A stretch of 64,000 nucleotides of DNA from an uncultured Actinomycetota bacterium (lineage in GTDB: Bacteria; Actinomycetota; Actinomycetes; Propionibacteriales; Nocardioidaceae): assembly GCA_963805345.1 (NCBI GenBank), contig CAWDUA010000012.1, positions 503 to 64,502 on the forward strand, written 5' to 3'. Shown here in pieces: positions 839 to 24,278 of this stretch. Made by a program: the position numbers and the translations under genes. Within the stretch, counting starts at the first letter, position 1; every line of letters starts with the position of its first letter. Under the pieces are notes generated by a model. That model saw only the letters and a program-made list of their open reading frames with translations, did not search any database and was not told the origin of the DNA.

Positions 839-840
839 CT

Positions 841-4280: not shown

Positions 4281-4340
4281 AGCAACGTCCCGAGAAGTTC
4301 GAGCCAGCTTCCGAAGCACTCTCATGCCGATGAGCGGAAG
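4281..4340 (-). repeat. Island spacer site R1 (reverse orientation)
   Basis: Reverse complement reads CCGCTCATCGGCATGAGAG...GGACGTT; 18/19 identical to the left arm of R4. Confidence 0.75.
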
Positions 4341-4352
4341 GCACGGCACTAG

Positions 4353-5042
4353 GTGGAGACTGCTCCGGTGACGGAGCAGCGTCTTCTGGCGGCAATCGCC
4401 GCGAGCCGCCGCTGGTACGACGACATCTTCGACCTGCATGGGATCGCAGTCGGATCCGACGGGGCTCTTTGGTGGGCCGAGGGCTCACCGCCGCGCTGGC
4501 ACTCGGCCGTGAAGACGTTGGTCCCGACGACAGATTCCGCGGGAGCGCTGCTGCGGATGGAGCGGCACCCGCACGGGACGATCGCGGACTCGTTCGGTCT
4601 CCTCGACCTGGCCGCGCAAGGGTTCGACCTGCTGTTCGCCGCGACGTGGCTCCACCACCGTGGCGTCGCAGCGGCCGCTCCAACGCTGGGCTGGAGTCGC
4701 GTCCTCGACTCCGATCTGATGGCTCGGTGGAACCAGCGCCACGACACGGTGGGCGCGTTGCCGTCAGACCTGTGGGCGCACCCTCGTTTTACGGTCCTGG
4801 CCCGCCACGACGGCGATGACCTCACGGGCGGGGCTATCCTGCACGACGCTGGGACCGTCGTAGGACTCTCCAACACTTGGTCGTCCGAGGGCGATCCGGT
4901 CGATCCGCGCGTGCTGCTCGACATCGCGGCGGAGACCCACCCCGGTCGAGCCGTCGTCGACTACGCCTGGGGTCCGGACCTCGAGACCATGCTCGGCGCA
5001 GGGTTCGAGCCGCTAGGTCCGCAGCACGTTTGGATCCGGTAG
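4353..5042 (+). CDS. Hypothetical protein
   Basis: 229-aa ORF with protein-like composition; no family recognised. Confidence 0.7.
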   Translation: METAPVTEQRLLAAIAASRRWYDDIFDLHGIAVGSDGALWWAEGSPPRWHSAVKTLVPTTDSAGALLRMERHPHGTIADSFGLLDLAAQGFDLLFAATWLHHRGVAAAAPTLGWSRVLDSDLMARWNQRHDTVGALPSDLWAHPRFTVLARHDGDDLTGGAILHDAGTVVGLSNTWSSEGDPVDPRVLLDIAAETHPGRAVVDYAWGPDLETMLGAGFEPLGPQHVWIR

Positions 5043-5110
5043 CGGCGAGGTCCTAAGGGCGAAGCCGACTCTAATGCGCCTCAGCAAGGCAGTGCTTCGG
5101 GGCGGCACGC

Positions 5111-6250
5111 TCACTGGGCGGGGTTGTCGTCGGCGATCGCTTTGGTGAGGATCATGTCGCCGAAGTCGTGGCGAGCCTGTGCAACGAAGTCCGGCATGCC
5201 TTCCCGGCCGATTCTCATAGCCCATTCACGGTTGCTCGTGAAGCCGTACCAAAGGTGGAGATCTTGGGCAGTGACCAGCCATCGATGGTCCGTGATCCTC
5301 TCCACGTTCCAGTTGGACAGGTCCCGGGCGTGCTCGAGGTGTTGATCTGTGAGGAGCTGGATGCCGTAGGCGTCGTGGACACGAGATGACCACAGGTGTC
5401 GGTTCCAAACCCAGAGCGAACCGCCACCCGGAATGTTAGTGGTGGTGACCGGGCCAAGCGTCAGCACCGGGAGGATCATGGCGACCTCTATCTGTTCTGC
5501 TTCGGCTCGGATCACGTCCCTGAGATTCATGGCCTGGTTCATGACGCCTGGGCCGGCGTTGTCGTCGATCTCGGTATAGGTCACGGTTCCGAACCCGCTG
5601 GCTCCGATGGTGCGGGCAGTCCCCAACTCTTCGTCGCGGAACGTGAGTCCGACGTAGTGCTGTTCAGCCTCGAGCCGTAGGCGGACCAGCTCCGCGCCGT
5701 CCTCGGCCGAGGCCGGGATGATGGGTCCCCCGCCACCGGTTTGCCCCACGGGACCGCCCTGGCTGACCCAGCTGGTGGCGATATCGAGGAGCCGTTCGGT
5801 ATCTGTTCGGGAGACACCCCACTGGTTAATGGCGATGCCGTAAGGGTTGCGTGGAATCTCGGAGAACGGCATCTCCATTGGGTAGGCCATCATCGCGGTC
5901 AGCGAGCGCATGGTGAGGGTGTTGCCCGTCCACAGCTCCCGTGCCGGTGGCGCTGTGACGACGGCTGCTTGGCGGAGTTCGGTGAGCCCGTCGACCAACT
6001 GATCGACGAGAACCGGCCACGAGCGGCCCTCGGAGATGAAGACGTAGGTGCCGATCGTGGTCGGGTAAACGAAGTCGACCTCGGCGTGGTCGTTCAACAC
6101 TGCGGAGACCAAATCGGCGGCCCGGTGTCGCTCCAGCCCGGGAACCTCGACGATGAGGTCCACACAGGGGCTCTCCCACATACGCCGCATGTAGGCACGG
6201 TGAGACTCGATCAGGGATCGATGCACCGTCACGACATCGGGCTCCGCCAA
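5111..6250 (-). CDS. Hypothetical protein
   Basis: 379-aa ORF with globular-protein composition; start overlaps the end of the upstream ORF. Confidence 0.7.
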   Translation of the reverse strand: MAEPDVVTVHRSLIESHRAYMRRMWESPCVDLIVEVPGLERHRAADLVSAVLNDHAEVDFVYPTTIGTYVFISEGRSWPVLVDQLVDGLTELRQAAVVTAPPARELWTGNTLTMRSLTAMMAYPMEMPFSEIPRNPYGIAINQWGVSRTDTERLLDIATSWVSQGGPVGQTGGGGPIIPASAEDGAELVRLRLEAEQHYVGLTFRDEELGTARTIGASGFGTVTYTEIDDNAGPGVMNQAMNLRDVIRAEAEQIEVAMILPVLTLGPVTTTNIPGGGSLWVWNRHLWSSRVHDAYGIQLLTDQHLEHARDLSNWNVERITDHRWLVTAQDLHLWYGFTSNREWAMRIGREGMPDFVAQARHDFGDMILTKAIADDNPAQ

Positions 6251-6849
6251 AGATTCAGCCGGCCGCGGCGACGGTGGCGACGTGGGGGACGGGGGACGGG
6301 GGGACGGGGGGGACGGGGGGACGGGGGGGACGGGGCTGTCTGGGGCTCGTCAGGCTGCTCGTCGTCCAACCACAGCGAGAAGGTGCGGTGCACCCACTCG
6401 TCGTCGGCGAGTTTCTCGCTGGCGCCCGGGAGGTCCATCTCTTCGTGATGAGCCATGAAGCACTTCATCAGCGGTCCATCTGCGGGGCGATTGGTGTAGT
6501 GCACGACCAGCATGTTCAGGTCGTTGACGTCGCCCTTCGACCTGGGCCGTGTCGAGATCGCCTTGTGGAAGAGGTCCAGGTTCACCACATCGTCGGTGTA
6601 GGGCGACACCCTGATCCAATCGTTGTCGCCCCTGGTCGAGTGATGCACGGCCCGGAAGGGTCGATCCCGATCCGCAGTCGGGCCGATCAAGATCACATGA
6701 TGTTCGATCGTCCGCTGGGTGGGCGACGCGTCCGGCTGGGTGCTCGGATACATCACGGCTAGGAACAGGGCATCGGTCAGCCAGTCAAGGCCATCCATGC
6801 GACGCGCAAAGTCTCTGGCAAACGCGCTCAACTCGGGGGTCTGCACCAC
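6229..6849 (-). CDS. Hypothetical protein with Pro-rich repeat tail
   Basis: ORF 6229..6909 with likely GTG start at 6849; C-terminus crosses the G-run repeat. Confidence 0.6.
   Translation of the reverse strand: MVQTPELSAFARDFARRMDGLDWLTDALFLAVMYPSTQPDASPTQRTIEHHVILIGPTADRDRPFRAVHHSTRGDNDWIRVSPYTDDVVNLDLFHKAISTRPRSKGDVNDLNMLVVHYTNRPADGPLMKCFMAHHEEMDLPGASEKLADDEWVHRTFSLWLDDEQPDEPQTAPSPPSPRPPRPPVPRPPRRHRRRGRLNLWRSPMS
6284..6335. repeat. Irregular tandem (G5-7)AC repeat
   Basis: G-run lengths 5,5,6,7,6,7,4 separated by AC. Confidence 0.95.
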
Positions 6850-6953
6850 CGGAGGATCCTCACACGCCGGGCAGCCGCGGCGGCGACGATTGCGTGAGAC
6901 TGGGGCCACCTGCGGGTGGTTGAGCCTCTATGGACTTGACCCTCGACTGACAA

Positions 6954-7010
6954 CCGCTCACGACATGAAGCGTCCTCAGCCGAGCGCGGACAGCGGCATG
7001 TGCGGACGTC
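6954..7010 (+). repeat. Island spacer site R2
   Basis: CCGCTCA...GAGCGCGGACAGCGGCATGTGCGGACGTC. Confidence 0.85.
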
Positions 7011-7058
7011 TGAATGTGGCTCGCACCGGCGTGGGGAAGCAGCCAGACTGTGGCGGTG

Positions 7059-7322
7059 ATGGTGATCCGGTTCATGGGTGAGCACACCGTCGACGTTCCG
7101 CTCTGGGACGACGAGGGGCTCATGTTCGCTACGCCCGAGGAGGCGCTGGAGGCACTTGGCCCGGTCGGGCTGAGCGATGGGTTGGTCTCGGAGATGGTGA
7201 CGTGGGCTCAGGATTGGCAGACCCGCTCGGGCAAGCCCGATCACGATGCCGAGGCTGCGCGTTTGGTCCGCCGCCTGAAGGGCGAGCTGGGCCACGGGGT
7301 CGGCGTCGTCTACCAGCTCTGA
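7059..7322 (+). CDS. Small hypothetical protein
   Basis: MVIRFMGEHTVDVPLWD...; sits between R2 and R3. Confidence 0.7.
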   Translation: MVIRFMGEHTVDVPLWDDEGLMFATPEEALEALGPVGLSDGLVSEMVTWAQDWQTRSGKPDHDAEAARLVRRLKGELGHGVGVVYQL

Positions 7323-7326
7323 GGGA

Positions 7327-7370
7327 ACCGCCGGGCTCGGCACGAGCGGGAGCGCGGACAGCGGCATGGA
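7327..7370 (+). repeat. Island spacer site R3
   Basis: GAGCGCGGACAGCGGCATG (7350-7368) is a 19-bp exact match to R2; left part CTCGGCACGAGC. Confidence 0.85.
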
Positions 7371-7462
7371 GTGCGCTGCGCGGATGCTGCGCGGCAACCA
7401 ATAGGTGCGTGGTCGGTCATAGTTGTGACTTCATCGGCGGCGCGCAGCGGAAGGTGGGTGGC

Positions 7463-8581
7463 GTGTTCATTCGGAACGCGGTTGTCGCTGCTTGCCTAGT
7501 CCTGGTCTGTGGCTGTGACTCGTCGCCCGAATCGGCTAGCTCCGCTCCAAGGAACGCCCCCAACGCGAACGGCGAGAGCCACCCGATCCATCCCAACGTT
7601 CCGGTCTCGGCGCCCGAGGTACAGCGGTTGCCTGGCCGCTGGAGTTCCGTGCCCTGGCAAGGGACACCCACAGCCATTCACGCCCCTCGCCCAGACACGG
7701 TGCTGCCGATGGTCCTCGGCCGCCCGGGTCCCCCCGCAAGCCTCGCCTACCACCCCCTGGAACGCCTGACAGATCCTGTGGGCTGGGCCGGCGAGCGGAT
7801 CATCTTCCTGGGACGCGATGGGCGTTGGCGTGAACTCAACCTGGGCGACCTCGGTCTGCCAGAGGCGTGGTGGCCGGGTGCCGACACGTTCGGGGCAGGA
7901 AGCCTGTCGGACGATGGCCGCATGTGGGTGGCGCACACGAACGCTGGTGTCGTGTTCGTCAACCTCACCACCGGCACACACCGTCACGTTGCATTCCCGC
8001 GCACGAGCCCGGTGGTGCGTGCGGTGACGTTCATCCCCGGCAGGGATGTGGTGTCGGCCTACGCCCGCCTGCCCGAAGGCTTGCGGTACTCGACCTTCCA
8101 CGTCTGGCCCGGAGGGAGACTGACCCGGGTGTCATACGACGGGAGGCGAACGCGTTTCGACGTGGATGGGACCCCGGTCGAGGTCAGCTCGAAAGGTCGC
8201 ACGCTGATCCTGACGAGGAGTGTCCCAGGCGGGCACACCATCACGAGATGGCGTGCGCCGCGTGGTGTCGTTGGAACGCCCTACGGAGTGTTCGGAGAGG
8301 ACCAGGTCGCCATCCAACCCACCCTCTCCGACGACCGCTCCATGATCGTCTGGGTCTTCGAGAAGCACTCGGGGCAGATTCAGGCACGGCTGCGCATCCC
8401 ACCCGGGACAACCATCGAACGCTGGACTGATAGGGGACGGCTCACTCTGTATCTCAACAGCCGACGATTGGTCACCTGGGACCCACAATCCGGACGAGTT
8501 AGGCGACTCCTTGAAGTGCCCGGCCCCTACCCAGGGCGCCTCGAGTCGGCAGCAAGCACCGTCTCGTTGGCCAGGTCATAA
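7463..8581 (+). CDS. Putative lipoprotein, beta-propeller-like
   Basis: Signal peptide with lipobox-like LVCGC; beta-rich repeats (GSLSDDGRMWVAH, LVTWDP). Confidence 0.7.
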   Translation: MFIRNAVVAACLVLVCGCDSSPESASSAPRNAPNANGESHPIHPNVPVSAPEVQRLPGRWSSVPWQGTPTAIHAPRPDTVLPMVLGRPGPPASLAYHPLERLTDPVGWAGERIIFLGRDGRWRELNLGDLGLPEAWWPGADTFGAGSLSDDGRMWVAHTNAGVVFVNLTTGTHRHVAFPRTSPVVRAVTFIPGRDVVSAYARLPEGLRYSTFHVWPGGRLTRVSYDGRRTRFDVDGTPVEVSSKGRTLILTRSVPGGHTITRWRAPRGVVGTPYGVFGEDQVAIQPTLSDDRSMIVWVFEKHSGQIQARLRIPPGTTIERWTDRGRLTLYLNSRRLVTWDPQSGRVRRLLEVPGPYPGRLESAASTVSLARS

Positions 8582-8605
8582 GTCCCCGGGAACGTCGAAT
8601 GCGAC

Positions 8606-8650
8606 ATCCGCTCATCGGCATGAGCGCGCCCTCACAGCGGTATGAGCGGA
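8606..8650 (+). repeat. Island spacer site R4
   Basis: TCCGCTCATCGGCATGAGCGCGCCCTCACAGCGGTATGAGCGGA; perfect outer inverted repeat TCCGCTCAT/ATGAGCGGA. Confidence 0.85.
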
Positions 8651-8681
8651 CGATTCGCAATGTCGGGAGTAGCCTTTCGAT

Positions 8682-8870
8682 ATGTTCATCCTTCGCAGGA
8701 AGCAGGTCGCTGCACCCTCGAAGGAACAGGCGCTGGCAGACGCGCGGAAGGCGACCGGCCGGCTCCGCCGAACCTTCGCCAAAACCCGGCGCTACCAAAG
8801 CGGGAAGCAGGAGAACCCGGCTGATCAGATCAGCCCCAACACGTACCTCGGCGGCGGTGGCGTCGGCTAG
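8682..8870 (+). CDS. Putative 62-aa small protein
   Basis: ATG start with GGGAG upstream; fills the R4-R5 interval. Confidence 0.4.
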   Translation: MFILRRKQVAAPSKEQALADARKATGRLRRTFAKTRRYQSGKQENPADQISPNTYLGGGGVG

Positions 8871-8907
8871 GTCCGCTTCGCCAAGTGGGAGTTCCGACCA
8901 GGGCCAA

Positions 8908-8947
8908 CCATCGTCGGCGGGTTGCGCTCACAGCGGCATAGGACGTT
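8908..8947 (+). repeat. Island spacer site R5
   Basis: CATCGTCGGCGGGTTGCGCTCACAGCGGCATAGGACGTT. Confidence 0.75.
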
Positions 8948-9038
8948 GAACCGAGGGCGTCGCGTGGAACGCGAGGGCAGCCGTTCCCTTTGGTGTATCG
9001 TTTCTCGATAACATCGAATAACGATACAGCGAGGCGAC

Positions 9039-9737
9039 ATGACGGTAGCAAGCATCTCCCGTGGAAGCACTCGACTCGTTGCCACGGAGGTAGCGATCCT
9101 CGTCGGGCTGCTCGTGAGTCTGGGCGCAGGACTGTCGATCCTCCTCGGGCCGAACGGTGTGCGGGTACTCAACTTCGAGCCGCAGTGGCCCGTGGTGGGT
9201 GCAAGCCAGAGCGAGATGTCGCTACAGACCAAGTTGTCAGCTGACGCTGGGGTGTCGGTGCAGAACGCTCCCACATGGCGGGACACCGACACGGGCACGA
9301 TTGATGCACGGACCGGTGGCAGACCCGTGGAGGTGACGGGGCCCTACTTCGGGTCGGTGGGCTTCCCGGACCCCTCAGTGAAACAACGGGTGTTGTGGGT
9401 GTCGTGGCGTGCATCGATCCCTCTGCTTGCAGCGGCGGTCCTGTGGCTCGTTCTGCTCATCGTGCGCTCGGTGCGAGACGCAGACCCGTTCACAGCAACA
9501 AATGCGCGCCGACTCCGGGTGCTGGCGGCGCTGGTGGGTGTAGGCGGCACACTCATCTCGGTGTGGGGGACGGTGCTGCGCCGATGGCTCCTCGATTCCT
9601 CGGGCGCTTCGGACATCGTGGTCCGTGACTGGTCGTTCACGTGGCTGCCGCTGCTCGTTGGACTGGTGATCGCTGTCCTGGCGCAAGTCTGGAGCCACGG
9701 CGTCGACATGAGGAACGACCTCGAGGACGTGGTCTAG
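9039..9737 (+). CDS. DUF2975 family membrane protein
   Basis: DPFTATNARRLRVLA and AQVWSHGVDMRNDLEDVV; followed by the typical HTH partner. Confidence 0.85.
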   Translation: MTVASISRGSTRLVATEVAILVGLLVSLGAGLSILLGPNGVRVLNFEPQWPVVGASQSEMSLQTKLSADAGVSVQNAPTWRDTDTGTIDARTGGRPVEVTGPYFGSVGFPDPSVKQRVLWVSWRASIPLLAAAVLWLVLLIVRSVRDADPFTATNARRLRVLAALVGVGGTLISVWGTVLRRWLLDSSGASDIVVRDWSFTWLPLLVGLVIAVLAQVWSHGVDMRNDLEDVV

Positions 9738-9739
9738 CG

Positions 9740-9961
9740 GTGCCCGTCGAGGAACCACATCACATCGTGTGTCATCTCGATGACCTCTTGGAGACCCACG
9801 ACATGACGCTCACCGAACTTGCCCGCAGGGTGGACGTGACACTCGCAAACTTGTCGAAACTCAAAAACAACCGAGCGAAGGCCGTGCGCTTCTCAACCCT
9901 CACCGCCCTATGCCGCGAACTGCAATGTCAACCCGGAGACCTCTTCACCCTCGCCGACTGA
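9740..9961 (+). CDS. XRE/HTH_26 transcriptional regulator
   Basis: LTELARRVDVTLANLSKLKNNRAKAVRFSTLTALCRELQCQPGDL. Confidence 0.9.
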   Translation: MPVEEPHHIVCHLDDLLETHDMTLTELARRVDVTLANLSKLKNNRAKAVRFSTLTALCRELQCQPGDLFTLAD

Positions 9962-9984
9962 TCCACAGGTCAACGTGTCACACG

Positions 9985-10026
9985 CCCGCTCATCGGCAGA
10001 TCCGCGCGGACAGCGGCATGTGCGGA
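9985..10026 (+). repeat. Island spacer site R6
   Basis: CCCGCTCATCGGCAGATCCGCGCGGACAGCGGCATGTGCGGA. Confidence 0.9.
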
Positions 10027-10096
10027 GGTTGGTCGGGGCCTTTCGGGTTCGGCTGTCGGCTGCTTGGAATGTTGTGAAGCCCGAGGTCAGCCAGGC

Positions 10097-10288
10097 TTAG
10101 ATCCCGCCGCCCATGGGTGGGAAGCGATCGGAACCCGAGCGCGCTCGGTCCAAGTCCTCTGCCGCCCGGGCGTCTCGTCGGGCGGCGCTGGTCCGCCTGC
10201 GTTGTTCACGGGCGACCCGCCACTGCCGGAACAGTTCGTAGGTTCTAGCCCGCAAGGTGCGCACAGCCAGAAGGCTACTCCGCGCCAA
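10097..10288 (-). CDS. Putative 63-aa small protein
   Basis: Only plausible ORF filling the R6-R7 interval. Confidence 0.3.
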   Translation of the reverse strand: MARSSLLAVRTLRARTYELFRQWRVAREQRRRTSAARRDARAAEDLDRARSGSDRFPPMGGGI

Positions 10289-10297
10289 CCTGAGTCA

Positions 10298-10346
10298 CCC
10301 GCTCATCGGCAGATCCGTGCGCGGACAGCGGCATAGGAGGACGTTC
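10298..10346 (+). repeat. Island spacer site R7
   Basis: CCCGCTCATCGGCAGATCCGTGCGCGGACAGCGGCATAGGAGGACGTT; nearly identical to R6. Confidence 0.9.
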
Positions 10347-10574
10347 GGGCGGCACCGTCAGCCTTCGGGCGCTGGCTCCGAATCGGGGTTGTCACGCCGC
10401 AAGGCGGCAGCGATGACCGACTACACGAGTTTGGCCGCGAGACCGACCGGGACGGTGAGCGCATCGGGGGCCAAGTCGTCGTCGGTCGGATGCGACTCGC
10501 TCGCCCAGAGCCCGGGACCATGTAACGCTCGGACATGTAGAGGTGAAGCTGACCTCAACCCGCTGGAGGACCCC

Positions 10575-11402
10575 ATGCGCGCGACATCGTGGACCGAAGT
10601 GCACGATCGGCTGATCGCCGACGCTGCACCGCCCGTGCCTGAGTTGTCCGACATCGTGCTGGACGAGGTCTGGATCCGGGTAGCGGCGGCGATGGAGGTC
10701 GAGGGCAAACCGCGTCGCAGGCGGGCTCGCCTCGTCGTCGGGGGGCTGGTCGGCGCCCTGGTTCTCGGCACCTCCGGCATCGCGGCCGCGGAGCTCTACA
10801 CGTCCCACACCGGAAACGGGCCATTGGACGCCGAAGACCTCAGGCTGGGCGGTCCCGGCGAGCGCCTCGATCCCGCAGCGCCCGACTTCGGGAACGTCGT
10901 CGCGAAGGAGACTGCGGACATCCCGTTCCCCAGTCGCGGATCTCGGGAGTTCGCGGTGCAGGACCAGGTCCACGACGAACGCTTCGCCGTGCCCGGCGCC
11001 GAGCTGGTTTCGGTCGGAGCCATCCGGGCGTGGGTGGCCGACGCAGCGCTGTGCTCGTGGTCGAACCAGTGGGCGGTCGCAACCCGGGACGGTGACGAAG
11101 CCGCCCGCGCCGAGGCGATCGGCATGATCCAGGCCGCGCCCCGGTGGCCGGCCGTCGTCGCCATCGATCCGAAGCCGTACAGCCGGACAGAGACCCAGGA
11201 GGTCAACGACGGCAACGGCAACACTCACACGGTGACCGTTCCGGACGAGAGCCAGTTCTACTACCTAGGTGCCCTCGGTGTGGCTGTGCAGGGACGCGAC
11301 CTGGATGCCGTGGCCCGGGTGCTAGCCGAGAACAACGGCTACTGCAGGCCCCAACTCGTCCCGGACCTGCCGAACGCCAACCCGCTTCATGCGGAGCGGT
11401 GA
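10575..11402 (+). CDS. Single-TM protein, possible anti-sigma partner
   Basis: RBS GGAGG before ATG 10575; RRRRAR followed by one hydrophobic helix; directly upstream of an ECF sigma. Confidence 0.7.
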   Translation: MRATSWTEVHDRLIADAAPPVPELSDIVLDEVWIRVAAAMEVEGKPRRRRARLVVGGLVGALVLGTSGIAAAELYTSHTGNGPLDAEDLRLGGPGERLDPAAPDFGNVVAKETADIPFPSRGSREFAVQDQVHDERFAVPGAELVSVGAIRAWVADAALCSWSNQWAVATRDGDEAARAEAIGMIQAAPRWPAVVAIDPKPYSRTETQEVNDGNGNTHTVTVPDESQFYYLGALGVAVQGRDLDAVARVLAENNGYCRPQLVPDLPNANPLHAER

Positions 11403-11403
11403 C

Positions 11404-11937
11404 ATGGGGCGCGCCTTGACTGCCCAGGAGTTCGAGACCCTCTACCGCGCGACCGTCCGCGATGTCCTCGCCTATGTACGACGGCGCACCTCCGGGGATG
11501 CCGAGGACATCGTCGCCGAGACGTACGCCGTGGCCTGGCGCCGGCGCTCGGAGCTGCCGAACCCCACGCTGCGGCGGGCGTGGCTCTTCGGTGTCGCCCG
11601 CAACCTACTCATAGCCGACGGTCGCCAGCAACAACGTGAGGGCAAACTGGTCAGCCAGCTCGCTGCCGGTCCCGGGCCAACTGTCAGCCCGACAGCAAAC
11701 CAGCGGACCGTACGGGTCGTGGCGGCTGCCCTCGGACGCCTCGCGCCGAACGACAAGGAGATCCTGCGTCTGGTTTCATGGGAGGGCCTGACCCCGGCAG
11801 AACTGGCCGTCGCTCTCGGCGTCCGCCCCGGAACCGCGCGGGTGCGCCTCCACCGCGCCCGACAGGCTCTCGCATCGGACCCGGAGATCAAGACACTCCT
11901 CGACAAGTTCGATCCAGCGATCCTGACAATGGGTTGA
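11404..11937 (+). CDS. ECF sigma-70 factor
   Basis: AEDIVAETYAVAWRRR..WLFGVARN (region 2); EILRLVSWEGLTPAELAVALG..GTARVRLHRAR (region 4). Confidence 0.92.
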   Translation: MGRALTAQEFETLYRATVRDVLAYVRRRTSGDAEDIVAETYAVAWRRRSELPNPTLRRAWLFGVARNLLIADGRQQQREGKLVSQLAAGPGPTVSPTANQRTVRVVAAALGRLAPNDKEILRLVSWEGLTPAELAVALGVRPGTARVRLHRARQALASDPEIKTLLDKFDPAILTMG

Positions 11938-11971
11938 TGCGCAACGAGGCGGCGCCGCCTTCGCTGAACTC

Positions 11972-11985
11972 GACCGCTCATCCGG
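11972..11985 (+). repeat. Spacer site R8, left half (abuts IS30)
   Basis: GACCGCTCATCCGG directly before the IS30 left TIR. Confidence 0.65.
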
Positions 11986-13208
11986 GTGGTCTCAATGGGT
12001 CAGCGCAACACTTCCTGACTTTGAGGAGGTTGCGATGGTGCGTGGGTATCGGAGGTTCTCGCCGGCGGATGAGGATGAGATCTGGCGGTGGATGCGGGCT
12101 GGTCATTCGATGAAGCCGGCAGCTCGTGCGTTGGGTCTTCCGACCAGCGCGGTGCGGTCGTATCTGGTGCGGTGTGGCGGGATCCGACCGGCGCCGCGGC
12201 GGCGGTCGCCGGGCCGGTTGAGCTTGCTCGAGCGGGAGGAGATCTCCCGTGGTCTGGCTGCCGGGTCTGTCGTTGCGGACGATCGCGGCCGGGCTGGGCA
12301 GGTCGGCCTCGACGGTCAGTCGGGAGGTCGCCGGGCACGGTGGCCGAGGTGGTTATCGGGCAGCGCGGGCTGATCAGCTGGCCTGGGCGCGGGCCCGGCG
12401 TCCCCAGGCGTGCAAGCTGGCAACCCATGCCGGTGTTGCGTGCGATCGTGGCCGAGAAGCTCCAGCAGGAGCAGTGGTCACCTCAGCAGATCGCTGGCTG
12501 GCTGAAGACCACCTATCCCGACGAGGCGGAGATGCAGGTGTCGCACGAGACGATCTACCGCACCCTGTTCATCCAGTCCCGCGGTGCGTTACGCAAGGAG
12601 CTGACCGCTCATCTGCGCACCGGGCGGGTGATCCGACGCCCGGCGGGGACCCGGCTCCCGGACGGTCGTGGTGGCCGGCCCGGGATCCTCAACATCTCCG
12701 AACGACCAGCCGAGGCTGTCGACCGGGCCGTGCCCGGGCATTGGGAAGGCGACCTGGTCTTCGGCAAACGGATGAGTCCCGGTGGCCACGCTTGGTGGAA
12801 CGCTCGACCCGGTTCGTGATGCTGGTCGCGCTGCCCGAGCGGGCACAAGGCCGACCTGGTCGCCGAGGCGTTGGCCGCGAAGATCACCACCCTGCCCGCC
12901 GCACTGACCCGGACGCTGACCTGGGACCAGGGCCACGAGATGGCCGAGCACATCCGGTTCACCGAGGAGACCGGTGATCGAGGTCTACTTCTGTGACCCC
13001 AGGAGTCGCCGTGGCAGCGCGGGAGCAACGAGAACACCAACGGACTGCTGCGCCAATACCTACCCCGAACCCTCGACTTCCGGACCCTGACCCAAGCCGA
13101 CTTCGACGCCATCGCCGACAAGCTCAACGGACGCCCTCGACAGACACTCGGCTTCAAGACACCATCACAAGTACTGGCCGAGGTGTTGCGTTGACGGCCT
13201 GAGCCCGC
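11986..13208 (+). mobile_element. IS30-family insertion sequence
   Basis: 26-bp imperfect TIRs (11986-12011 and 13183-13208, 19/26 match) around an IS30 transposase. Confidence 0.9.
12035..13194 (+). pseudogene. IS30 transposase with multiple frameshifts
   Basis: LSLLEREEISRGLA, WSPQQIAGWL, VSHETIY, GHWEGDL, LTWDQGHEM and GSNENTNGLLRQYLP spread over alternating frames. Confidence 0.9.
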
Positions 13209-13226
13209 AGGCATGTGAGGTCGATG
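13209..13226 (+). repeat. Spacer site R8, right half
   Basis: AGGCATGTGAGGTCGATG; completes the palindrome GACCGCTCAT/ATGTGAGGTC. Confidence 0.65.
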
Positions 13227-13482: not shown

Positions 13483-13497
13483 CCGGCGGAGTGACGC
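13483..13497 (+). repeat. Variant spacer site (class II) R9
   Basis: CCGGCGGAGTGACGC. Confidence 0.6.
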
Positions 13498-14626: not shown

Positions 14627-14641
14627 CCGGCGAAGTGACGC
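14627..14641 (+). repeat. Variant spacer site (class II) R10
   Basis: CCGGCGAAGTGACGC. Confidence 0.6.
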
Positions 14642-15377: not shown

Positions 15378-15391
15378 CGGCGGAGTGACGC
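15378..15391 (+). repeat. Variant spacer site (class II) R11
   Basis: CGGCGGAGTGACGC. Confidence 0.6.
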
Positions 15392-16598: not shown

Positions 16599-16772
16599 GT
16601 GTGGCCCTGGCCGGCCCTAGACGGACGGATAGCGCGCCGCACCGACAGCCGGCGATATGGGCTACGCGGGTTGGCCCGTGAACAGTCACGGCTGGGCAGT
16701 TGCGCAAGACGTACCGTCTGAACTCGTTGAAGCCGTCCGGCTTGTGCTGTTAGGCGCGTGAGGGCGCTTGGG

Positions 16773-17393: not shown

Positions 17394-17403
17394 GGCGTTC
17401 CTC

Positions 17404-18420: not shown

Positions 18421-18800
18421 GAACTAAAGATGCCCCCGCACCCGCGAAAGTTCGACCACCCACCACCCGCGCACCATCCGCGGTCCACCTCTCCACTGGT
18501 ATTCGGGTATTGCCCGCAGCGGCCGCCCCAAAATCGCCAGAGCCACCCGCCCGGGTGCGGTCAGCCTCAGACCTCTCCACCTCGTCGGCTCCGAGCACGT
18601 CACCGACCGCGACCACGTCGCGCGCCGAAGACACCTGGCTGGCGCGCCCCACAGGGCGCAACAGAGCGCAACAGGGCGCACCTGGACCGGCAGCGGGAGG
18701 CCCGGGCCCACCAACCGGCGCCCGAGTGCCAGCCCGCGTCCTCGCCGCACACCACGTCTCCAAACACGGGCCGCGGCATCGATTGCACTCCAAGAGGGCC

Positions 18801-18927
18801 GACAGCCGGCGGAAGGACGCATGCTGCTTGGTGGTGTGCCGGGCAACGGACGTGCCTCAACTCGTGCCACCTTCGCCCGGACAACGGCTACGGACGTCTG
18901 CCGCAAAGGCAGGCGGCGGAAGGAAGC
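18801..18927 (+). repeat. Cluster of three partial spacer sites
   Basis: GACAGCCGGCGGAAGGACGC (18801-18820), CCCGGACAACGGCTACGGACGTC (18876-18898), CGGCGGAAGGAAGC (18914-18927). Confidence 0.55.
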
Positions 18928-19375
18928 ACCATGCCGACGGGATGGCCCGCAGGGTGGTCCCGCGATTCGGGCAGTTCGGGTCCCCGCGTGCTGGAATGCC
19001 AGCCAAGGAAGTACGCGGTACCTCGGATGAACCGAACCATGAGCAACCGTGCAGCGAACTGACCGGATCCTCACGACTCGACTGAACTGCGTTACTGGGA
19101 CGCGAGCAGCGGACTGGGCATACGGCTCTCGTCAGCCACAGCGCCAACCAGCAAACAAGTGACGTACCGGGGGCATCGTTCGCCTTGGTCGGCTCGGGAG
19201 TGCGGGGACTCCCCGACGGTGCGCACCGTGGTCCGCCGTGCACGTGGACGGAGCAGCTGTGGGGTTGGGTGGACCGTTGCGCGGTCGCCGACTCGGTGGC
19301 CTGAACCGGTTGCGTCGATGCCAACCTTTCCTTCGTTGGGGCTCCAGGTCGCCGCGCACCCCGCGGCCGCGATGG

Positions 19376-20212
19376 TCACCTCACCCAGCCGCCGAGGCCG
19401 CCGATGGCCGAGAGGATGACTCGTTCGCGCTGCATGTCGCTTGTGGCCCGGGCCATCGCCATACTCAGGATGATCGGGAATCGGTCGTCGGACATGGTGA
19501 CCTCCATGACGACGACGACGTTCTGGCGTCGTGCGATCAGGAGCGAGTACGTGGCTACCGGCGGGGCGGTATTCCGCAGCTGTCGGGTGTCGCTGAGCGT
19601 GGCGATCCGGTCACGCTGGTTGGCGTAGTACTCGTTCAGATGCCATTGAGGTCCCCACAGCGGCAGACCCCATCGGGCGGTCTCCACGTTCCGCGGGGTG
19701 GGGCAGTCGTGGAGCAGGCGCCATGCGTCGGTGACTGCGCGGTGTGCGGCGGTGATGGTGTCGTAGCGAAGCACGAACTCGTTGCCGAACCGCGGCTGAC
19801 CTGGACGACCGTAGGTCGCTGCGTCGGACTCGGCGGCACCCCAGGTCAGTGGAGTGCTCACGCATGGGGAAAGTGGGGCCGGCGCGGCCCCGGGGTTGAC
19901 CGGGTTTCCCTCCTCTACGGTCAGGAGCGGGTGGGTTGCGAGTGTGAGGAGACCGCTGGCTGGGGGCGGGCCGGGCGTTGCCGGCGAGGGAGGGGCGGCG
20001 GAGTCGCGCCGGTTCCCCGCTGCGGTGCAGCCCACGATCAGTGTCGCGAGTACCGCAGGTGTGACCAACGCAGCGATACGACGGTGTCGGCGGTGGGCGG
20101 GGTGGCCCCGATCGCGAACCTGGTCGGCTCGTTCCGGTCGTTGGCGGTAGGTGGCTGCGGGACCCGTGTCTCCCGACGTGGGCTGTGGTGGCTGTGAGTT
20201 GAATGTAGTCAT
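19376..20212 (-). CDS. Putative lipoprotein / sensor-like extracellular protein
   Basis: Hydrophobic helix ending LIVGC, Pro-rich linker, Cys-containing domain. Confidence 0.65.
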   Translation of the reverse strand: MTTFNSQPPQPTSGDTGPAATYRQRPERADQVRDRGHPAHRRHRRIAALVTPAVLATLIVGCTAAGNRRDSAAPPSPATPGPPPASGLLTLATHPLLTVEEGNPVNPGAAPAPLSPCVSTPLTWGAAESDAATYGRPGQPRFGNEFVLRYDTITAAHRAVTDAWRLLHDCPTPRNVETARWGLPLWGPQWHLNEYYANQRDRIATLSDTRQLRNTAPPVATYSLLIARRQNVVVVMEVTMSDDRFPIILSMAMARATSDMQRERVILSAIGGLGGWVR

Positions 20213-20218
20213 GACGGG

Positions 20219-20494
20219 TCAGGGGACGTAGGTGTAGCAGACCGGCATGGGTCCGGCGAGTTCGTCGTTCCAGGTGTGGGGCGTGATGAAGCAGCCGTGC
20301 CCTACGTAGTGGCCGTGGGTGTGCACGGCGGGAGCCGGGGCCGATGGTGGGTCGCCGCGTCCGGGCATGGCAGAGGCGCCGCCGAGCGTGACGGCGAGCA
20401 GGACGCCGGCCAATCCGGTAGCTGCGGCGGCGGAGAGGGCGCGACGGTGGCGGGTCGATGAGGCTGGGCGATGGAGGTTCGACAACGTGGTCAT
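20219..20494 (-). CDS. Small secreted protein
   Basis: RR-containing signal peptide; short mature part with two Cys. Confidence 0.65.
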   Translation of the reverse strand: MTTLSNLHRPASSTRHRRALSAAAATGLAGVLLAVTLGGASAMPGRGDPPSAPAPAVHTHGHYVGHGCFITPHTWNDELAGPMPVCYTYVP

Positions 20495-20818
20495 GAGGGT
20501 TTCCCTTGTTCGGTAGCCGGGATGTGCGGCTGTAGAACCCTCACGTTCGCGCTAAGGACCGGCTCCCACATTGGGAGGACAACCCGTCTTGGGCGACCAA
20601 CCGGCTGGCGAACCTAAGGGGTACAGGTCGACCGCCCCGGCTCGTCCCTTGGTCCGGCATGCCGCCGCCGCGATTCCCAACCGGGCGGATCGGCCGCCGG
20701 CTCCGGTTGGGCGGGGTGCCCGACCGCTGTGATCCCGGTCTCCACGGGGCCTCGGGGGCGCCTAGCATGGATGATCTCAAGACCTTTCGTTTTCCTCAGG
20801 CCGGGGGCGGTGGACCAC

Positions 20819-23668: not shown

Positions 23669-23691
23669 CCGCTACGCGACCCCCACAAAGG

Positions 23692-23741
23692 CCCGCGTCA
23701 TAGTGGGCGCTATGACGCACCCGGACAGCGGCATGTGCGGG
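23692..23741 (+). repeat. Island spacer site R14
   Basis: CCCGCGTCATAG..CTATGACGCACCCGGACAGCGGCATGTGCGGG, 24 bp after the LuxR stop. Confidence 0.8.
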
Positions 23742-23744
23742 CGG

Positions 23745-23798
23745 ATCGGTTGTCATGCAGGAAGGGCGTGCGTATCGGTTGTCATGCAGGAAGGGCGT
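23745..23798. repeat. 25-bp direct duplication (29-bp period)
   Basis: ATCGGTTGTCATGCAGGAAGGGCGT at 23745-23769 and 23774-23798. Confidence 0.95.
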
Positions 23799-24207
23799 CG
23801 CGCAATGTCACAGCCAAGTCGGCCAGCCGCTCAGGCGCTGTTGGAGCCGGTAGCCCATTCGGATAGAGGTGCCACATGCCGTCGTCGGTTCGCCGGGGAT
23901 GGACGTGGAGATGGACGTGGTCGACCTCCTGCCCAGCCACCGCACCATTCGACTGCCACAGGTTCATGCCCTCCGGCTCAAGCACGTCACGAACGGCTCG
24001 TGCCACCCGCACAGCTAGCGACATCAGCGCCGCACCATCTTCGGGCGACAGCTCATAGATCGTTGGAGTGTGCCGTCTCGGGACAACCAGGACATGCCCT
24101 GAGACCGCCTGACGGATGTCCAGGAAAGCGATCGCCGCGTCGTCCTCGGCCACTAAGGCCGACGGCCGGGCACCCGAGATGATGCCGCAGAAAACGCAGT
24201 CGCTCAT
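23782..24207 (-). CDS. HIT family nucleotide hydrolase
   Basis: MSDCVFCGII, GHVLVVPRRH, AGQEVDHVHLHVHP. Confidence 0.93.
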   Translation of the reverse strand: MSDCVFCGIISGARPSALVAEDDAAIAFLDIRQAVSGHVLVVPRRHTPTIYELSPEDGAALMSLAVRVARAVRDVLEPEGMNLWQSNGAVAGQEVDHVHLHVHPRRTDDGMWHLYPNGLPAPTAPERLADLAVTLRDALPA

Positions 24208-24250
24208 GCCTCCATCATTCCGCACGCGGGCGGGTAGGGGGTGTTGTGGA

Positions 24251-24278
24251 GCGCCCTCACATCGGTGCGAGGTCGATG
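24251..24278 (+). repeat. Partial spacer site R15
   Basis: GCGCCCTCACATCGGT is 15/16 identical to 8626-8641; GAGGTCGATG is shared with the R8 right half. Confidence 0.6.

What the first reader, a model, noticed from the sequence alone, without database searches (positions are those of the whole stretch)
4281..24278. About 15 related semi-palindromic sites punctuate the island genes: candidate non-canonical gene-cassette array
Seen: a family with consensus CCGCTCATCGGCA-(variable)-GACAGCGGCAT-(N)-GGACGT recurs at 4281-4340 (minus), 6954, 7327, 8606, 8908, 9985, 10298, 11972/13209, 23692 and 24251, plus variants at 13483, 14627, 15378, 16644 and 18801-18927. All but one share the same orientation. 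Several begin 5-45 bp after a stop codon. They separate functionally unrelated 1-2-gene units (lipoprotein; DUF2975+HTH; TM protein+ECF; TIGR03085; GIY-YIG; LuxR-AAA). The architecture is unusual: an outer inverted pair (CCGCTCAT/ATGWGCGG) overlaps an inner direct pair CAKCGGCA spaced 19-24 bp (e.g. 9991 and 10011), often with a small central palindrome. No full copy was found in 25-64 kb. Known: integron attC sites sit in this position but use RYYYAAC/GTTRRRY cores, which are absent here. Inference: these may be recombination or capture sites of an integron-like cassette system in Actinobacteria. The enzyme could be a tyrosine recombinase beyond the left edge, or the island's HUH relaxase.
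Basis: partly seen in the sequence, partly recalled or inferred. Interest (0 to 1): 0.88.

Follow-up and report, generated by a model that had tools for sequence, protein, structure and literature searches.

The report
Integron-like gene-cassette arrays in Actinomycetota
The repeated sites are real and mark the joints of exchangeable gene modules. They look like the recombination sites of a very abundant Xer-like tyrosine recombinase of soil Actinomycetota, that is, a cassette system that resembles the integron but uses a different enzyme and a different kind of site.

Summary
The site family is real, but the window holds about 9 copies, not 15. Eight copies are significant. A ninth is split by an IS30-family element. 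All lie between 4.3 and 23.8 kb, seven of the eight on the + strand. None lies in the housekeeping part from 25 to 64 kb.

The same site occurs in at least 117 genome loci, and only the Actinomycetota loci hold more than one copy. Some hold 13 to 19 per 8 kb. 180 of 186 copies share their array's orientation, small ORFs fill the gaps, and the cargo is very diverse.

Each site is two adjacent 7-6-7 cores, CCGSWCA-(T/G)CGGCA-TGWSCGG. Blocks shared by unrelated loci end inside the cores. A 3012-bp block is 100% identical between the window and another element.

A Xer-like tyrosine recombinase with the full RKHRHY set is itself a 1017-bp module. It recurs at 99.4-99.9% identity in at least five contexts, with joints inside CGGCA. 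Its family has at least 6231 clusters.

The sites are not attC and the enzyme is not IntI, XerC or XerD. Recombination activity is inferred, not shown. I found no description in the searchable literature. Interest is high.

The parts
4316..4340 (-). Site A. A single core, CCGCTCA-TCGGCA-TGAGAGT, in the orientation opposite to the array. It lies next to the UPF0158 gene and the relaxase gene.
   Evidence: nhmmer E=4e-5. Homology with L057 (83%) starts inside this core, and the left arms differ. A like site lies 270 bp upstream of the relaxase gene in L001.
6952..7011 (+). Site B. The left core is degenerate (CCGCTCACGACA). The right core is intact: CGGACAG-CGGCA-TGTGCGG at 6987-7009.
   Evidence: nhmmer E=3e-7. 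The 100%-identical 3012-bp block shared with L001 starts at 6987.
7014..7322 (+). Module gene 1, 102 aa, no family. Its ATG lies 4 nt after site B.
   Evidence: GC3 0.84. The identical protein is on ENA contig L001. No Pfam or NCBIfam hit.
7337..7376 (+). Site C (right core GCGCGGACAGCGGCATGGAGTGCG).
   Evidence: nhmmer E=7e-6. The same core occurs in another context in metagenome run X2.
7430..8581 (+). Module gene 2 (about 290 aa called in L001, no family).
   Evidence: Gene call in L001 at 10696-11568, which equals window 7709-8581. No Pfam hit.
8604..8655 (+). Site D, a full composite site: CCGCTCATCGGCATGAGCG-cgccct-CACAGCGGTATGAGCGGACGA.
   Evidence: nhmmer E=1e-14.
8682..8870 (+). Module gene 3 (62 aa).
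   Evidence: GC3 0.83. Called in L001.
8923..8947 (+). Site E. Right core CTCACAGCGGCATAGGACGTTG; the left core is degenerate.
   Evidence: nhmmer E=0.03. Exact ACAGCGG anchor.
9039..9961 (+). Two-gene module: a DUF2975 membrane protein and a Cro/C1-type HTH protein.
   Evidence: Pfam PF11188 at 1.4e-9 and PF13443 at 8.8e-20.
9982..10031 (+). Site F, a full composite site. The block shared with L001 ends at 9998, directly after CATCGGCA of the left core.
   Evidence: nhmmer E=9e-14. Junction alignment.
10295..10346 (+). Site G, a full composite site.
   Evidence: nhmmer E=8e-14. Three metagenome runs hold it with three different sequences before 10299-10304. One run holds a different sequence after 10334.
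10400..11937 (+). Module with a gene of unknown function and an ECF sigma factor gene (11389-11937).
   Evidence: Pfam Sigma70_r2 and Sigma70_r4_2.
11970..11982 (+). Left part (CCGCTCATC) of a core that the IS element splits.
   Evidence: In run X3 this position is followed by GGCATGAGCGG, that is, an uninterrupted core.
11983..13209 (+). IS30-family insertion sequence with terminal inverted repeats, inserted into the core. The transposase frame looks broken in this copy.
   Evidence: Copies in L025, L066, L114 and L039 at 80-90% identity. All of them sit inside cores at CGG^CATG. The L039 copy scores 257.6 bits on NF033563 transpos_IS30, cut-off 80. In the window the frame is split over two ORFs.
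13210..13226 (+). Right part (GGCATGTGAGGTCGATG) of the split core.
23695..23744 (+). Site H: hairpin GCGTCATAGTGGGCGCTATGACGC, then right core CCGGACAG-CGGCA-TGTGCGG. It lies 24 nt after the stop of the LuxR-AAA gene.
   Evidence: nhmmer E=2e-5. Fold -17.2 kcal/mol, z=-2.2. Homology with L092 stops at 23671.
916..3680 (-). TrwC/MOBF-type relaxase-helicase gene of the host island. This is context, not the proposed recombinase.
   Evidence: Pfam AAA_30 at 4.8e-46. 77-79% nucleotide identity to the TrwC gene of L001.

Best explanation
The sites are double-stranded core sites of a dedicated Xer-like ('simple') tyrosine recombinase, and they delimit exchangeable DNA modules.

Site anatomy:
- Each core is a 7-bp arm (CCGSWCA), a 6-bp asymmetric overlap ((T/G)CGGCA) and an inverted 7-bp arm (TGWSCGG).
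- A typical junction holds two such cores in direct orientation.
- The left core is CCGCTCA-TCGGCA-TGWSCG.
- The right core is CCGGACA-GCGGCA-TGAGCGG(ACGTT).
- 0 to 12 bp separate the two cores.

Proposed mechanism:
- Strand exchange happens inside the shared CGGCA overlap. A module therefore carries the inner arms, and the outer arms stay with the context.
- Cargo modules of one or two small genes, on either strand, run from a right core to the next left core. As circles they would carry the symmetric core CCGCTCA-TCGGCA-TGAGCGG.
- The short spacers run from a left core to a right core. In some arrays that position holds the integrase gene itself, on the strand opposite to the sites.
- Repeated excision, integration and exchange build same-orientation arrays. 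In the window and in L001, L057, L083 and L209 a TrwC relaxase gene lies next to the sites, which points to integrative mobilisable or conjugative elements. That would explain the spread across genera.
- In this window the array (4.3-23.8 kb) sits in a chromosomally integrated relaxase-bearing island. It has no integrase of this family within 64 kb, so any shuffling here would need the enzyme in trans.

Shown:
- Site family, arrays, orientation and tight packing of ORFs.
- Module boundaries inside the cores.
- The integrase as a discrete module between two cores, and its intact catalytic residues.

Inferred:
- That this integrase catalyses the exchanges.
- The 7-6-7 reading with cleavage at the overlap borders.
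- Circular intermediates.
For: 1. The family is real and clustered.
- All significant copies lie at 4.3-23.8 kb.
- The region 28-64 kb is housekeeping: COX1, aconitase-family protein, Ddl, RecG, SMC.

2. Distribution in genomes.
- The genome scan found at least 117 loci.
- 53 of the first 80 are Actinomycetota. 35 of those 53 hold at least 2 sites per 8 kb and 21 hold at least 4.
- None of the 27 hits in other phyla holds more than one site.
- L110 holds 13 sites in 8 kb and L077 holds 19.
- 180 of 186 copies share their array's orientation.
- Median spacing is 627 bp. ORFs fill the intervals on either strand.
- Cargo is hyper-diverse: 938 candidate ORFs, and the largest cluster spans only 7 loci.

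3. Whole-unit differences between loci.
- Window 6987-9998 equals L001 9974-12985 at 100% over 3012 bp. The flanks are unrelated or 77% identical.
- That block starts at the right core of site B and ends after CATCGGCA of site F.
- L001/L077, L026/L077 and L040/L110 share single modules that end in cores.
- 22 of 75 internal ends of homology blocks lie within 25 nt of a core, against 4.7% for random positions (p=3e-12).

4. Link to the integrase.
- A tyrosine recombinase with C-terminus HPNYILAAYMASGT occurs in 5 of 55 site loci.
- At least 549 metagenome contigs encode relatives.
- In 53 of 77 of the best contigs, TGCCGA lies within 130 nt after the stop codon, against 8% background. TGCCGA is the reverse complement of the left-core overlap, and it is usually followed by TGAGCGG.
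- 37 of 43 cores near the gene lie on the opposite strand.

5. The integrase is itself a module.
- The identical protein P0053 sits in at least 5 contexts.
- The shared unit is 1017 bp at 99.4-99.9% identity.
- Its joints are (context arm)CAT-CGGCA-CGACCGG...int...CCTAGGAG-CGGCA-TG(context arm). Only about 8-10 bp are shared at each joint.
- L199 and L201 differ by one whole 2.4-kb module plus a composite site, bounded CGGCA to CGGCA.

6. The enzyme looks active and is of the simple type.
- R, K, HxxR, H and Y all align to XerD, PDB entry 1a0p.
- It has Pfam Phage_integrase plus a SAM-like N-terminal domain.

7. Two unrelated IS families insert precisely into the cores.
Against: - No experiment or read-level evidence of excision, circles or integration. 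Only assembled contigs of the public runs were available, and the one apparent back-joint was a false lead.
- The window has no integrase of this family. Only 5 of 55 site loci (8 kb each) hold one.
- Conversely, only 23 of the 80 best integrase contigs hold a canonical site at E<0.01. L209 has the integrase but few canonical cores. The one-to-one link between array and integrase is therefore not established, and the sites may be more diverse than my profile.
- The inner arms are weakly conserved. The outer left arm was fixed by the search pattern, so its conservation is not independent evidence.
- Why nearly every junction carries two cores rather than one is not explained.
- Many boundaries show only the right core (64 right-to-right intervals).
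Confidence: 0.72

Rival explanations
1. The sites are oriT-like nick sites. The island's TrwC-type HUH relaxase (or another HUH enzyme) would drive recombination between them on single-stranded DNA, as TrwC of plasmid R388 does between two oriT copies.
For: - A single-core site lies just upstream of the relaxase gene in the window, L001 and L057.
- Relaxase genes occur in 4 of 55 site loci and in L209.
- All sites share one orientation, as a strand-specific enzyme would require.
- The left core can form a short hairpin, CGCTCAT-CGGC-ATGAGCG.
Against: - Most arrays show no relaxase gene within their 8 kb.
- The hairpin is not conserved: z is near 0 in 6 of 8 window copies, and the right arm varies.
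- The element that is itself bounded by the cores, and carries a core next to its stop codon in 53 of 77 contexts, is a tyrosine recombinase gene, not a relaxase gene.
- Inverted 7-bp arms around a 6-bp asymmetric spacer are the textbook layout of tyrosine-recombinase cores.
Confidence: 0.05
2. The motif is a conserved regulatory element between genes of mobile islands, such as a promoter, operator, 'stoperator' or terminator. The shared blocks would then end there only because homologous recombination uses these conserved patches.
For: - The sites lie in intergenic positions. In the window they lie upstream of co-oriented genes, and site B ends 4 nt before an ATG.
- ECF sigma factor genes recur near the sites, in 7 loci.
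Against: - In arrays the flanking genes lie on either strand in about equal numbers: 55 on the opposite strand and 47 on the same strand as the sites. The sites themselves keep one orientation.
- The identity shared at the joints is only about 8-10 bp, with different arms on either side. That is too short for RecA-type exchange.
- Joints fall at the same few bases in independent contexts.
- No Rfam family matches.
Confidence: 0.06
3. The composite site is a miniature, non-autonomous mobile element of REP or MITE type. It would be a stripped-down integrase module of 25-45 bp that inserts between genes. The genes themselves would not be mobile cassettes, and the integrase would be only one more parasite of these sites.
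For: - The integrase gene occupies exactly the position of the short spacer, between a left and a right core.
- The same spacer unit occurs with different genes on both sides (site G in run X4).
- The 29-bp right-core units are tandemly amplified 15 times in L058 and L074.
- IS30 and IS110 elements also target the cores.
Against: - Gene modules also recur in different contexts and orders at 91-100% identity, with joints in the cores.
- ORFs are packed from core to core.
- GC3 of the array genes in the window is lower than that of the neighbouring housekeeping genes, about 0.70-0.85 against about 0.90-0.95.
- This rival differs from the main explanation mainly in which unit is called the cassette. 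It needs the same enzyme and the same sites.
Confidence: 0.12

Closest known systems
Integrons (IntI integrase, attI, attC gene cassettes)
   Same: - A tyrosine recombinase and short recombination sites bound one- or two-gene promoter-poor modules.
- Same-orientation arrays with very diverse small accessory genes, including toxin-antitoxin pairs.
- Each site is built from two 'simple sites' separated by a variable spacer.
- Insertion sequences target the sites (compare the IS1111-attC elements; from my own knowledge).
   Different: - The enzyme is not IntI: TIGR02249 scores 49.5 bits against a cut-off of 265, and only the C-terminus aligns.
- The sites have no RYYYAAC/GTTRRRY boxes and do not fold as stable single-strand hairpins.
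- The two simple sites are direct repeats, not inverted, and both appear to recombine.
- The integrase gene is itself a module inside the array, on the opposite strand. It is not a fixed platform with attI and the Pc promoter.
- Cassette genes lie on both strands.
- The hosts are Actinomycetota.
pdif modules of Acinetobacter plasmids and dif-integrating elements (IMEX), both Xer-dependent (from my own knowledge)
   Same: Discrete gene modules bounded by short arm-spacer-arm sites for Xer-type simple tyrosine recombinases, exchanged between replicons.
   Different: - Those systems use the host's XerC/XerD and 28-bp dif-like sites (11-6-11), and the sites around a module alternate in orientation.
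- Here the recombinase is a dedicated, multi-copy, mobile gene. Its XerC and XerD model scores are 105-116 bits against cut-offs of 279-335.
- The cores read 7-6-7 with another sequence, and all are in direct orientation.
Simple arm-less integrases of mobile elements, for example mycobacteriophage Brujita Int (PDB 5vfz)
   Same: The protein has only a core-binding and a catalytic domain. It is related to Xer, and the site lies next to the gene.
   Different: Brujita Int integrates one phage at one attB. Here the about 1-kb integrase unit is the whole element, and the same cores bound many unrelated cargo modules in arrays.
Tycheposon islands of Prochlorococcus and other tandem accretions at one att site (from my own knowledge)
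   Same: Arrays of cargo modules separated by repeated att-site remnants, built by site-specific integrases.
   Different: Those use tRNA-gene att sites and larger elements. Here the unit is a single small gene, and the site is a dedicated 20-bp core doublet.
TrwC-mediated oriT-oriT site-specific recombination (plasmid R388; from my own knowledge)
   Same: A relaxase gene lies next to a single-core site in three related islands, and the sites are strand-oriented.
   Different: The hairpin and the nick-region features are not conserved. Most arrays lack a relaxase gene nearby. The associated mobile gene is a tyrosine recombinase.

Membership tests
Integron | Integrase of the IntI clade, with the IntI-specific insertion in the catalytic domain. 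| tested here: not met
   NCBIfam TIGR02249 scores 49.5 bits (cut-off 265) and PRK15417 scores 37.9 bits (cut-off 435). Both align only to the last 65-70 residues. IntI4 (PDB 2a3v) matches at E=2e-6 over the C-terminus only. No integrase of any kind was found in the window's island.
Integron | attC sites: R''/L''...L'/R' imperfect palindromes (RYYYAAC...GTTRRRY) that recombine as folded single strands. | tested here: not met
   The conserved boxes are CCGCTCA/TCGGCA/TGAGCGG. The two central boxes are direct repeats. Single-strand DNA folding gives z-scores of -0.65 to +0.24 for 6 of 8 window copies.
Integron | Arrays of short cassettes, each bounded by the recombination site, with all sites in one orientation. 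| tested here: met
   L110 holds 13 sites per 8 kb and L077 holds 19. 180 of 186 copies share the orientation. Median spacing is 627 bp. ORFs run from site to site.
Integron | A fixed platform: intI divergent from attI and Pc, with cassettes mostly co-oriented and promoterless. | tested here: not met
   The integrase is a 1017-bp module between two cores and is found in at least 5 contexts. Cassette ORFs lie on both strands, 55 against 47. Promoters were not tested.
Xer/dif and pdif modules | Recombination by the host's XerC/XerD orthologues. | tested here: not met
   XerD TIGR02225 scores 109.5 bits (cut-off 329.6). XerC TIGR02224 scores 105.6 bits (cut-off 335.15). The gene is multi-copy and mobile.
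Xer/dif and pdif modules | 28-bp dif-like sites (11-6-11) in alternating orientation around modules. | tested here: not met
   The cores read 7-6-7 with a different sequence, and they are in direct orientation.
Simple (Xer-like) tyrosine recombinases | A core-binding and a catalytic domain only, with the RKHRH pentad and the tyrosine nucleophile. | tested here: met
   Pfam PF00589 at 1.6e-27, plus SAM-like N-terminal domains. The best solved relatives are XerD 1a0p and the XerC-like protein 4a8e. R, K, HxxR, H and Y all align to XerD.
REP/BIME-type dispersed repeats | Genome-wide scatter after housekeeping genes, and association with a RAYT (Y1 HUH) transposase. | tested here: not met
   No copy lies in the 36 kb of housekeeping DNA in the window. 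Copies are clustered in arrays. No HUH transposase is among the recurrent neighbours. Whole genomes could not be scanned.
Relaxase oriT-specific recombination | A conserved inverted repeat plus nick region recognised by the relaxase, with the relaxase present wherever the sites recombine. | tested here: inconclusive
   A single core lies upstream of the relaxase gene in the window, L001 and L057. But only 4 of 55 site loci hold a relaxase gene, and the hairpin is not conserved. Nicking cannot be tested here.

The most novel reading that the evidence does not exclude
Soil Actinomycetota carry an independently evolved counterpart of the integron. It would be a gene-capture and shuffling system built on double-stranded 7-6-7 core sites and a self-mobile Xer-like recombinase module. 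It would assemble arrays of single-gene cassettes, some of them next to TrwC relaxase genes on mobilisable islands. The phylum is thought to lack integrons.
Probability: 0.6. Interest if true: 0.9.

Novelty: new variant of a known kind. Interest (0 to 1): 0.86.

Why it matters
Integrons are the textbook device for stockpiling and shuffling single genes, and surveys find them essentially absent from Actinobacteria (from my own knowledge of the IntegronFinder surveys; I did not read them here).

A second, unrelated cassette system in the phylum that dominates soils and makes most antibiotics would matter in three ways:
- It would open a new reservoir of mobile accessory genes. The modules seen here encode glyoxalases, SnoaL and SRPBCC proteins, TetR, ArsR and LuxR regulators, ECF sigma factors and toxin-antitoxin pairs.
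- It would explain part of the assembly-breaking repeat content of soil metagenomes. Most contigs that carry this integrase are only 1-7 kb long.
- It would offer a compact new recombinase and 20-bp site pair for high-GC genome engineering.

It also gives a concrete, testable answer to how small cargo genes move between actinobacterial mobile elements.

Tried and rejected
1. Known RNA family. Rfam gave nothing at gathering thresholds, and only a spurious miRNA hit at E=0.87. No tRNA or tmRNA gene is present.

2. attC-like single-strand hairpin. Folding is not better than shuffled sequence for most copies.

3. Phage origin. The site pattern has 0 matches in the viral contig collection.

4. Circle junction. 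A 'goes back' joint (8627 to 6983) in run X2 looked like an excised two-cassette circle. It is only a 169-nt contig with a consensus composite site in another context.

5. A conserved partner gene for the integrase or the arrays. Clustering of neighbouring ORFs found none, apart from the integrase, IS elements, ECF sigma factors and the relaxase.

6. Fetching DNA to the left of the window through the UPF0158 protein. That product is not on record.

7. ECF-type or sigma-70-type promoter reading of the right core. The hexamer spacing does not fit, and gene orientation is mixed (reasoning).

8. Literature. Six full-text searches, including the site sequences themselves, found nothing that describes the sites or such a system. 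Subscription journals are not covered.

Full report

GACAGCGGCAT with at most one mismatch occurs 10 times against 2.0 expected, and no shuffle of 100 reached 10. Every clean copy is on the + strand between 6.9 and 23.8 kb. CCGCTCATCGGCA occurs exactly four times, three on + and one on -.

A profile built from relatives gives significant hits at these places:
- 4319-4340 on the - strand
- 6952-7011
- 7337-7375
- 8604-8655
- 8923-8941
- 9982-10031
- 10295-10346
- 23717-23744

In metagenome run X3 the same gene end is followed by an uninterrupted core.

- The copies at 13483, 14627 and 15378 are a different 13-nt motif, GGCGRAGTGACGC.
- The copies at 16644, 18801-18927 and 24251 are not supported.

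So there are about nine sites rather than fifteen. None lies in 25-64 kb. That part encodes cytochrome oxidase subunit I, an aconitase-family protein, D-Ala-D-Ala ligase, RecG and SMC, so it is ordinary chromosome.

The island itself has lower GC. It carries a TrwC/AAA_30 relaxase gene at its left end. In the related element L001 the relaxase gene is followed by an Xis-like HTH gene and a phage-type integrase gene. The island is therefore an integrated mobilisable or conjugative element.

**2. What the sites are not**

- No Rfam family matches.
- As single strands, six of the eight window copies fold no better than shuffled sequence.
- The classical attC boxes are absent.
- The pattern has no match in the viral contig collection.

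**3. Distribution**

I scanned 185,579 species genomes for CCGCTCATCGGCA-N(4-34)-CAGCGGYAT.

- Of the first 80 loci, 53 are Actinomycetota. Most are soil MAGs. Named genera include Nocardioides, Marmoricola, Pedococcus, Actinotalea, Lentzea, Amycolatopsis and Nocardia.
- The other 27 are single matches inside coding sequence of other phyla. None of them has a second copy.
- Among the 53 actinobacterial loci, 35 hold at least two sites per 8 kb and 21 hold at least four.
- Some loci are dense arrays: L110 has 13 sites in 8 kb, and L077 has 19 nhmmer hits at E below 1, 13 of them below 0.001.
- Where a locus holds three or more copies, 180 of 186 have the same orientation.
- Median spacing is 627 bp, with the 10th to 90th percentile at 305-1424 bp.
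- ORFs with coding-type GC bias fill the intervals almost from site to site. They lie on either strand, 55 against 47.
- Gene content is extremely diverse. Among 938 candidate ORFs the largest homology cluster spans only seven loci.

**4. The sites are module boundaries**

The protein of 7014-7322 is also encoded on metagenome contig L001. L001 9974-12985 equals window 6987-9998 at 100% identity over 3012 bp. The flanks are unrelated, or 77% identical in the relaxase gene.

- The block begins exactly at CGGACAGCGGCAT of site B.
- It ends exactly after CCGCTCATCGGCA of site F.
- In L001 both joints are again sites, but with other partner halves.

Single modules shared by L001/L077 (539 bp, 92%), L026/L077 (444 bp, 94%) and L040/L110 (617 bp, 98%) end in the same way.

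Over all pairs of site-bearing genome loci, 22 of 75 internal ends of homology blocks lie within 25 nt of a detected core. Random positions give 4.7% (binomial p=3e-12). Many of the remaining ends belong to IS elements whose flanking cores are disrupted.

Assembled contigs of four soil metagenome runs show the same picture. Three different sequences precede site G at 10299-10304, and another sequence follows it at 10334.

**5. Anatomy**

The consensus is CCGCTCATCGGCA-TGAGCG-(0-12 nt)-CGGACAGCGGCATG(A/T)G(C/A)G(G/T)(A/G)CGTT.

I read it as two cores.
- The left core is CCGCTCA | TCGGCA | TGWSCG.
- The right core is CCGGACA | GCGGCA | TGAGCGG.
- Each core has 7-bp inverted arms of consensus CCGSWCA around a 6-bp asymmetric centre.

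Separate profiles for the two cores show a regular grammar:
- A left core is followed by a right core within 60 nt in 83 of 97 cases.
- A right core is followed by a left core only after more than 200 nt in 88 of 90 cases.
- There are also 64 long right-to-right intervals, so the left core is often degenerate.

Single cores also exist. Site A of the window is one: CCGCTCA-TCGGCA-TGAGAGT. So are the IS targets in L114 and L025.

**6. The enzyme candidate**

Among recurrent neighbours of the sites is a tyrosine recombinase with Pfam Phage_integrase and a SAM-like N-terminal domain. It occurs in L056, L075, L088, L008 and L074. These copies are 58-72% identical to one another and share the C-terminus HPNYILAAYMASGT.

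It is a simple, Xer-like recombinase.
- Its best solved relatives are XerD (1a0p) and an archaeal XerC-like protein (4a8e).
- R, K, HxxR, H and Y all align with XerD.
- It scores far below the XerC, XerD and IntI model cut-offs.

The family is very large and mobile.
- At least 6231 clusters at 90% identity score E at most 1e-40. Sources name them only 'tyrosine-type recombinase' or 'XerD'.
- They occur in Kribbella, Nocardioidaceae, Jiangellaceae and Mycobacteriaceae.
- Most sit on contigs of 1-7 kb, as expected of a repeated element.

A metagenome scan found at least 549 contigs. In most of the best 80, the stop codon is followed by a GC-rich hairpin and then ...GGCAT-TGCCGA-TGAGCGG-GCGTTG. 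That sequence is the left core on the opposite strand.
- TGCCGA lies within 130 nt after the stop in 53 of 77 loci, against 8% of random windows.
- 37 of 43 cores near the gene are on the strand opposite to it.

**7. The integrase is itself a module, and the joints are at CGGCA**

The identical protein P0053 was found on 24 contigs, and ten were fetched.
- All ten share a unit of about 1017 bp at 99.4-99.9% identity. Their neighbours fall into at least five different contexts.
- In site orientation the unit reads CAT-CGGCA-CGACCGGGCGACC...(integrase on the reverse strand)...CCTAGGAG-CGGCA-TG.
- The bases to the left (CCGCT, GCGCA, CCTCT) change with the context.
- The bases to the right (TGCGG, AGCGC, AGCGG, ACCGT, ATCGG) also change with the context.
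- The sequence common to the partners at a joint is therefore only about 8-10 bp. That rules out ordinary homologous recombination. It places the crossover in the CGGCA centre, as expected for strand exchange in the overlap of a tyrosine-recombinase core.

Other modules behave alike.
- L199 and L201 differ by one 2.4-kb module (a cNMP-binding oxidoreductase and a glyoxalase) plus a composite site. The difference is bounded CGGCA to CGGCA.
- A glyoxalase module lies upstream of the integrase in L200 but downstream of it in L205.

**8. Model**

Cargo modules run from a right core to the next left core. If excised they would carry the symmetric core CCGCTCA-TCGGCA-TGAGCGG. The short spacers run from a left core to a right core, and in some arrays that interval holds the integrase gene. 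Any two cores share the same overlap and similar arms, so all can in principle recombine. This reading fits several observations:
- the direct orientation of the sites
- the exchange of single and multiple modules
- the single cores
- the tandem run of fifteen 29-bp right-core units in L058 and L074

The model does not explain why nearly every junction keeps two cores.

The window itself has no integrase of this family. Its array would be shuffled only in trans. The 100% identical block shared with L001 nevertheless shows very recent exchange.

**9. Rivals**

- A relaxase-driven (HUH) mechanism is suggested by the single core upstream of the relaxase gene in three islands. It lacks any general association with the arrays, and the hairpin is not conserved.
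- A regulatory element with homology-driven exchange is contradicted by the mixed gene orientation and by the 8-10-bp joints.
- A reading as a miniature mobile element is partly compatible with the model, but it does not account for the movement of gene modules.

**10. Comparison with known systems, and novelty**

Functionally this is closest to an integron. It fails the defining tests for one: an IntI-clade enzyme, attC structure and a fixed platform. It also differs from Xer-dependent pdif modules, which use host XerC/XerD, 28-bp sites and alternating orientation.

Six full-text searches, including the site sequences themselves, found no description. The library does not cover subscription journals, so prior description cannot be excluded.

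I rate it a new variant of a known kind: arrays of gene cassettes driven by a site-specific recombinase. Interest is high. Recombination activity remains to be shown.

Noticed in passing
window 11983-13209; L025 5100-6335, L066 706-1928, L114 1879-3102, L039 5587-6556: An IS30-family element of about 1.23 kb with terminal inverted repeats sits inside a core in every copy seen. In four of the five copies it is inserted after CGG of CGG^CATG, in the orientation opposite to the site. The window copy has the other orientation, and its transposase frame looks broken into two ORFs.
   Followed up: partly
L066 6814-7815, L107 3758-5282, L074 5940-7289, L209 6501-7842, 15057-16397 and 17584-18924: IS110-family (DEDD, RNA-guided) transposase genes recur in the arrays. 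In L066 the element abuts a right core at CAGCGG. This recalls the IS1111 elements that target attC sites in integrons.
   Followed up: partly
L058 6415-6850 and L074 5024-5430: A tandem run of fifteen 29-bp units, each a complete right core (CAGCGGCATGGTCGGACGCTACGCACCGA), directly follows a left core. Shorter versions, with a second GACAGC about 29 nt after a right core, occur in L003, L083, L084 and L097.
   Followed up: partly
window 13485-13497, 14629-14641, 15379-15391 (+): Three exact copies of GGCGRAGTGACGC lie on one strand in the part of the island that lacks canonical sites. In L158 the same motif lies directly in front of a left core. It may be a degenerate site or the site of a related system.
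   Followed up: partly
window 23745-23798: Directly after site H, a 25-nt sequence (ATCGGTTGTCATGCAGGAAGGGCGT) occurs twice with a period of 29 bp.
   Followed up: no
L119-L198, 10-60 nt after the integrase stop codon: Many integrase genes are followed by a GC-rich hairpin (for example GCGTCTCCCGCGG...CCGGGAGACGC) in front of the core. The stem sequence varies between loci while the two sides stay complementary. Its role is unknown; it could be a terminator or an accessory binding element.
   Followed up: no
L142, L144, L155, L174, L175, L184, L193 (directly after the integrase stop): In about seven loci the integrase is followed by repeats of GCATATAGCAT-like sequence and a small gene that begins M..LYEVEIEPEVR. 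It was not scanned against any family; by eye the start resembles a RelE/ParE-type toxin. The canonical hairpin and core are missing in these loci.
   Followed up: no
window 6261-6335: A G-rich short tandem repeat (GGACGGGGGG-like units) lies inside the overlapping ORFs 5741-6448 (+) and 6229-6909 (-).
   Followed up: no
window 1-4340 and L001 13082-17717: The island backbone is an integrated mobilisable or conjugative element. It carries a TrwC relaxase gene, 77-79% identical at the nucleotide level between the window and L001. In L001 an HTH regulator, an Xis-like HTH_17 gene and a phage-type integrase gene follow it. The corresponding integrase of the window would lie just beyond its left edge.
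   Followed up: partly
L209 (ENA ERZ25039483 contig_4600, 1.08 Mb): An integrase of the family lies among small genes, three IS110 copies and a TrwC relaxase gene, but few canonical cores are detected. The sites of some sub-families may differ from the profile used here.
   Followed up: partly
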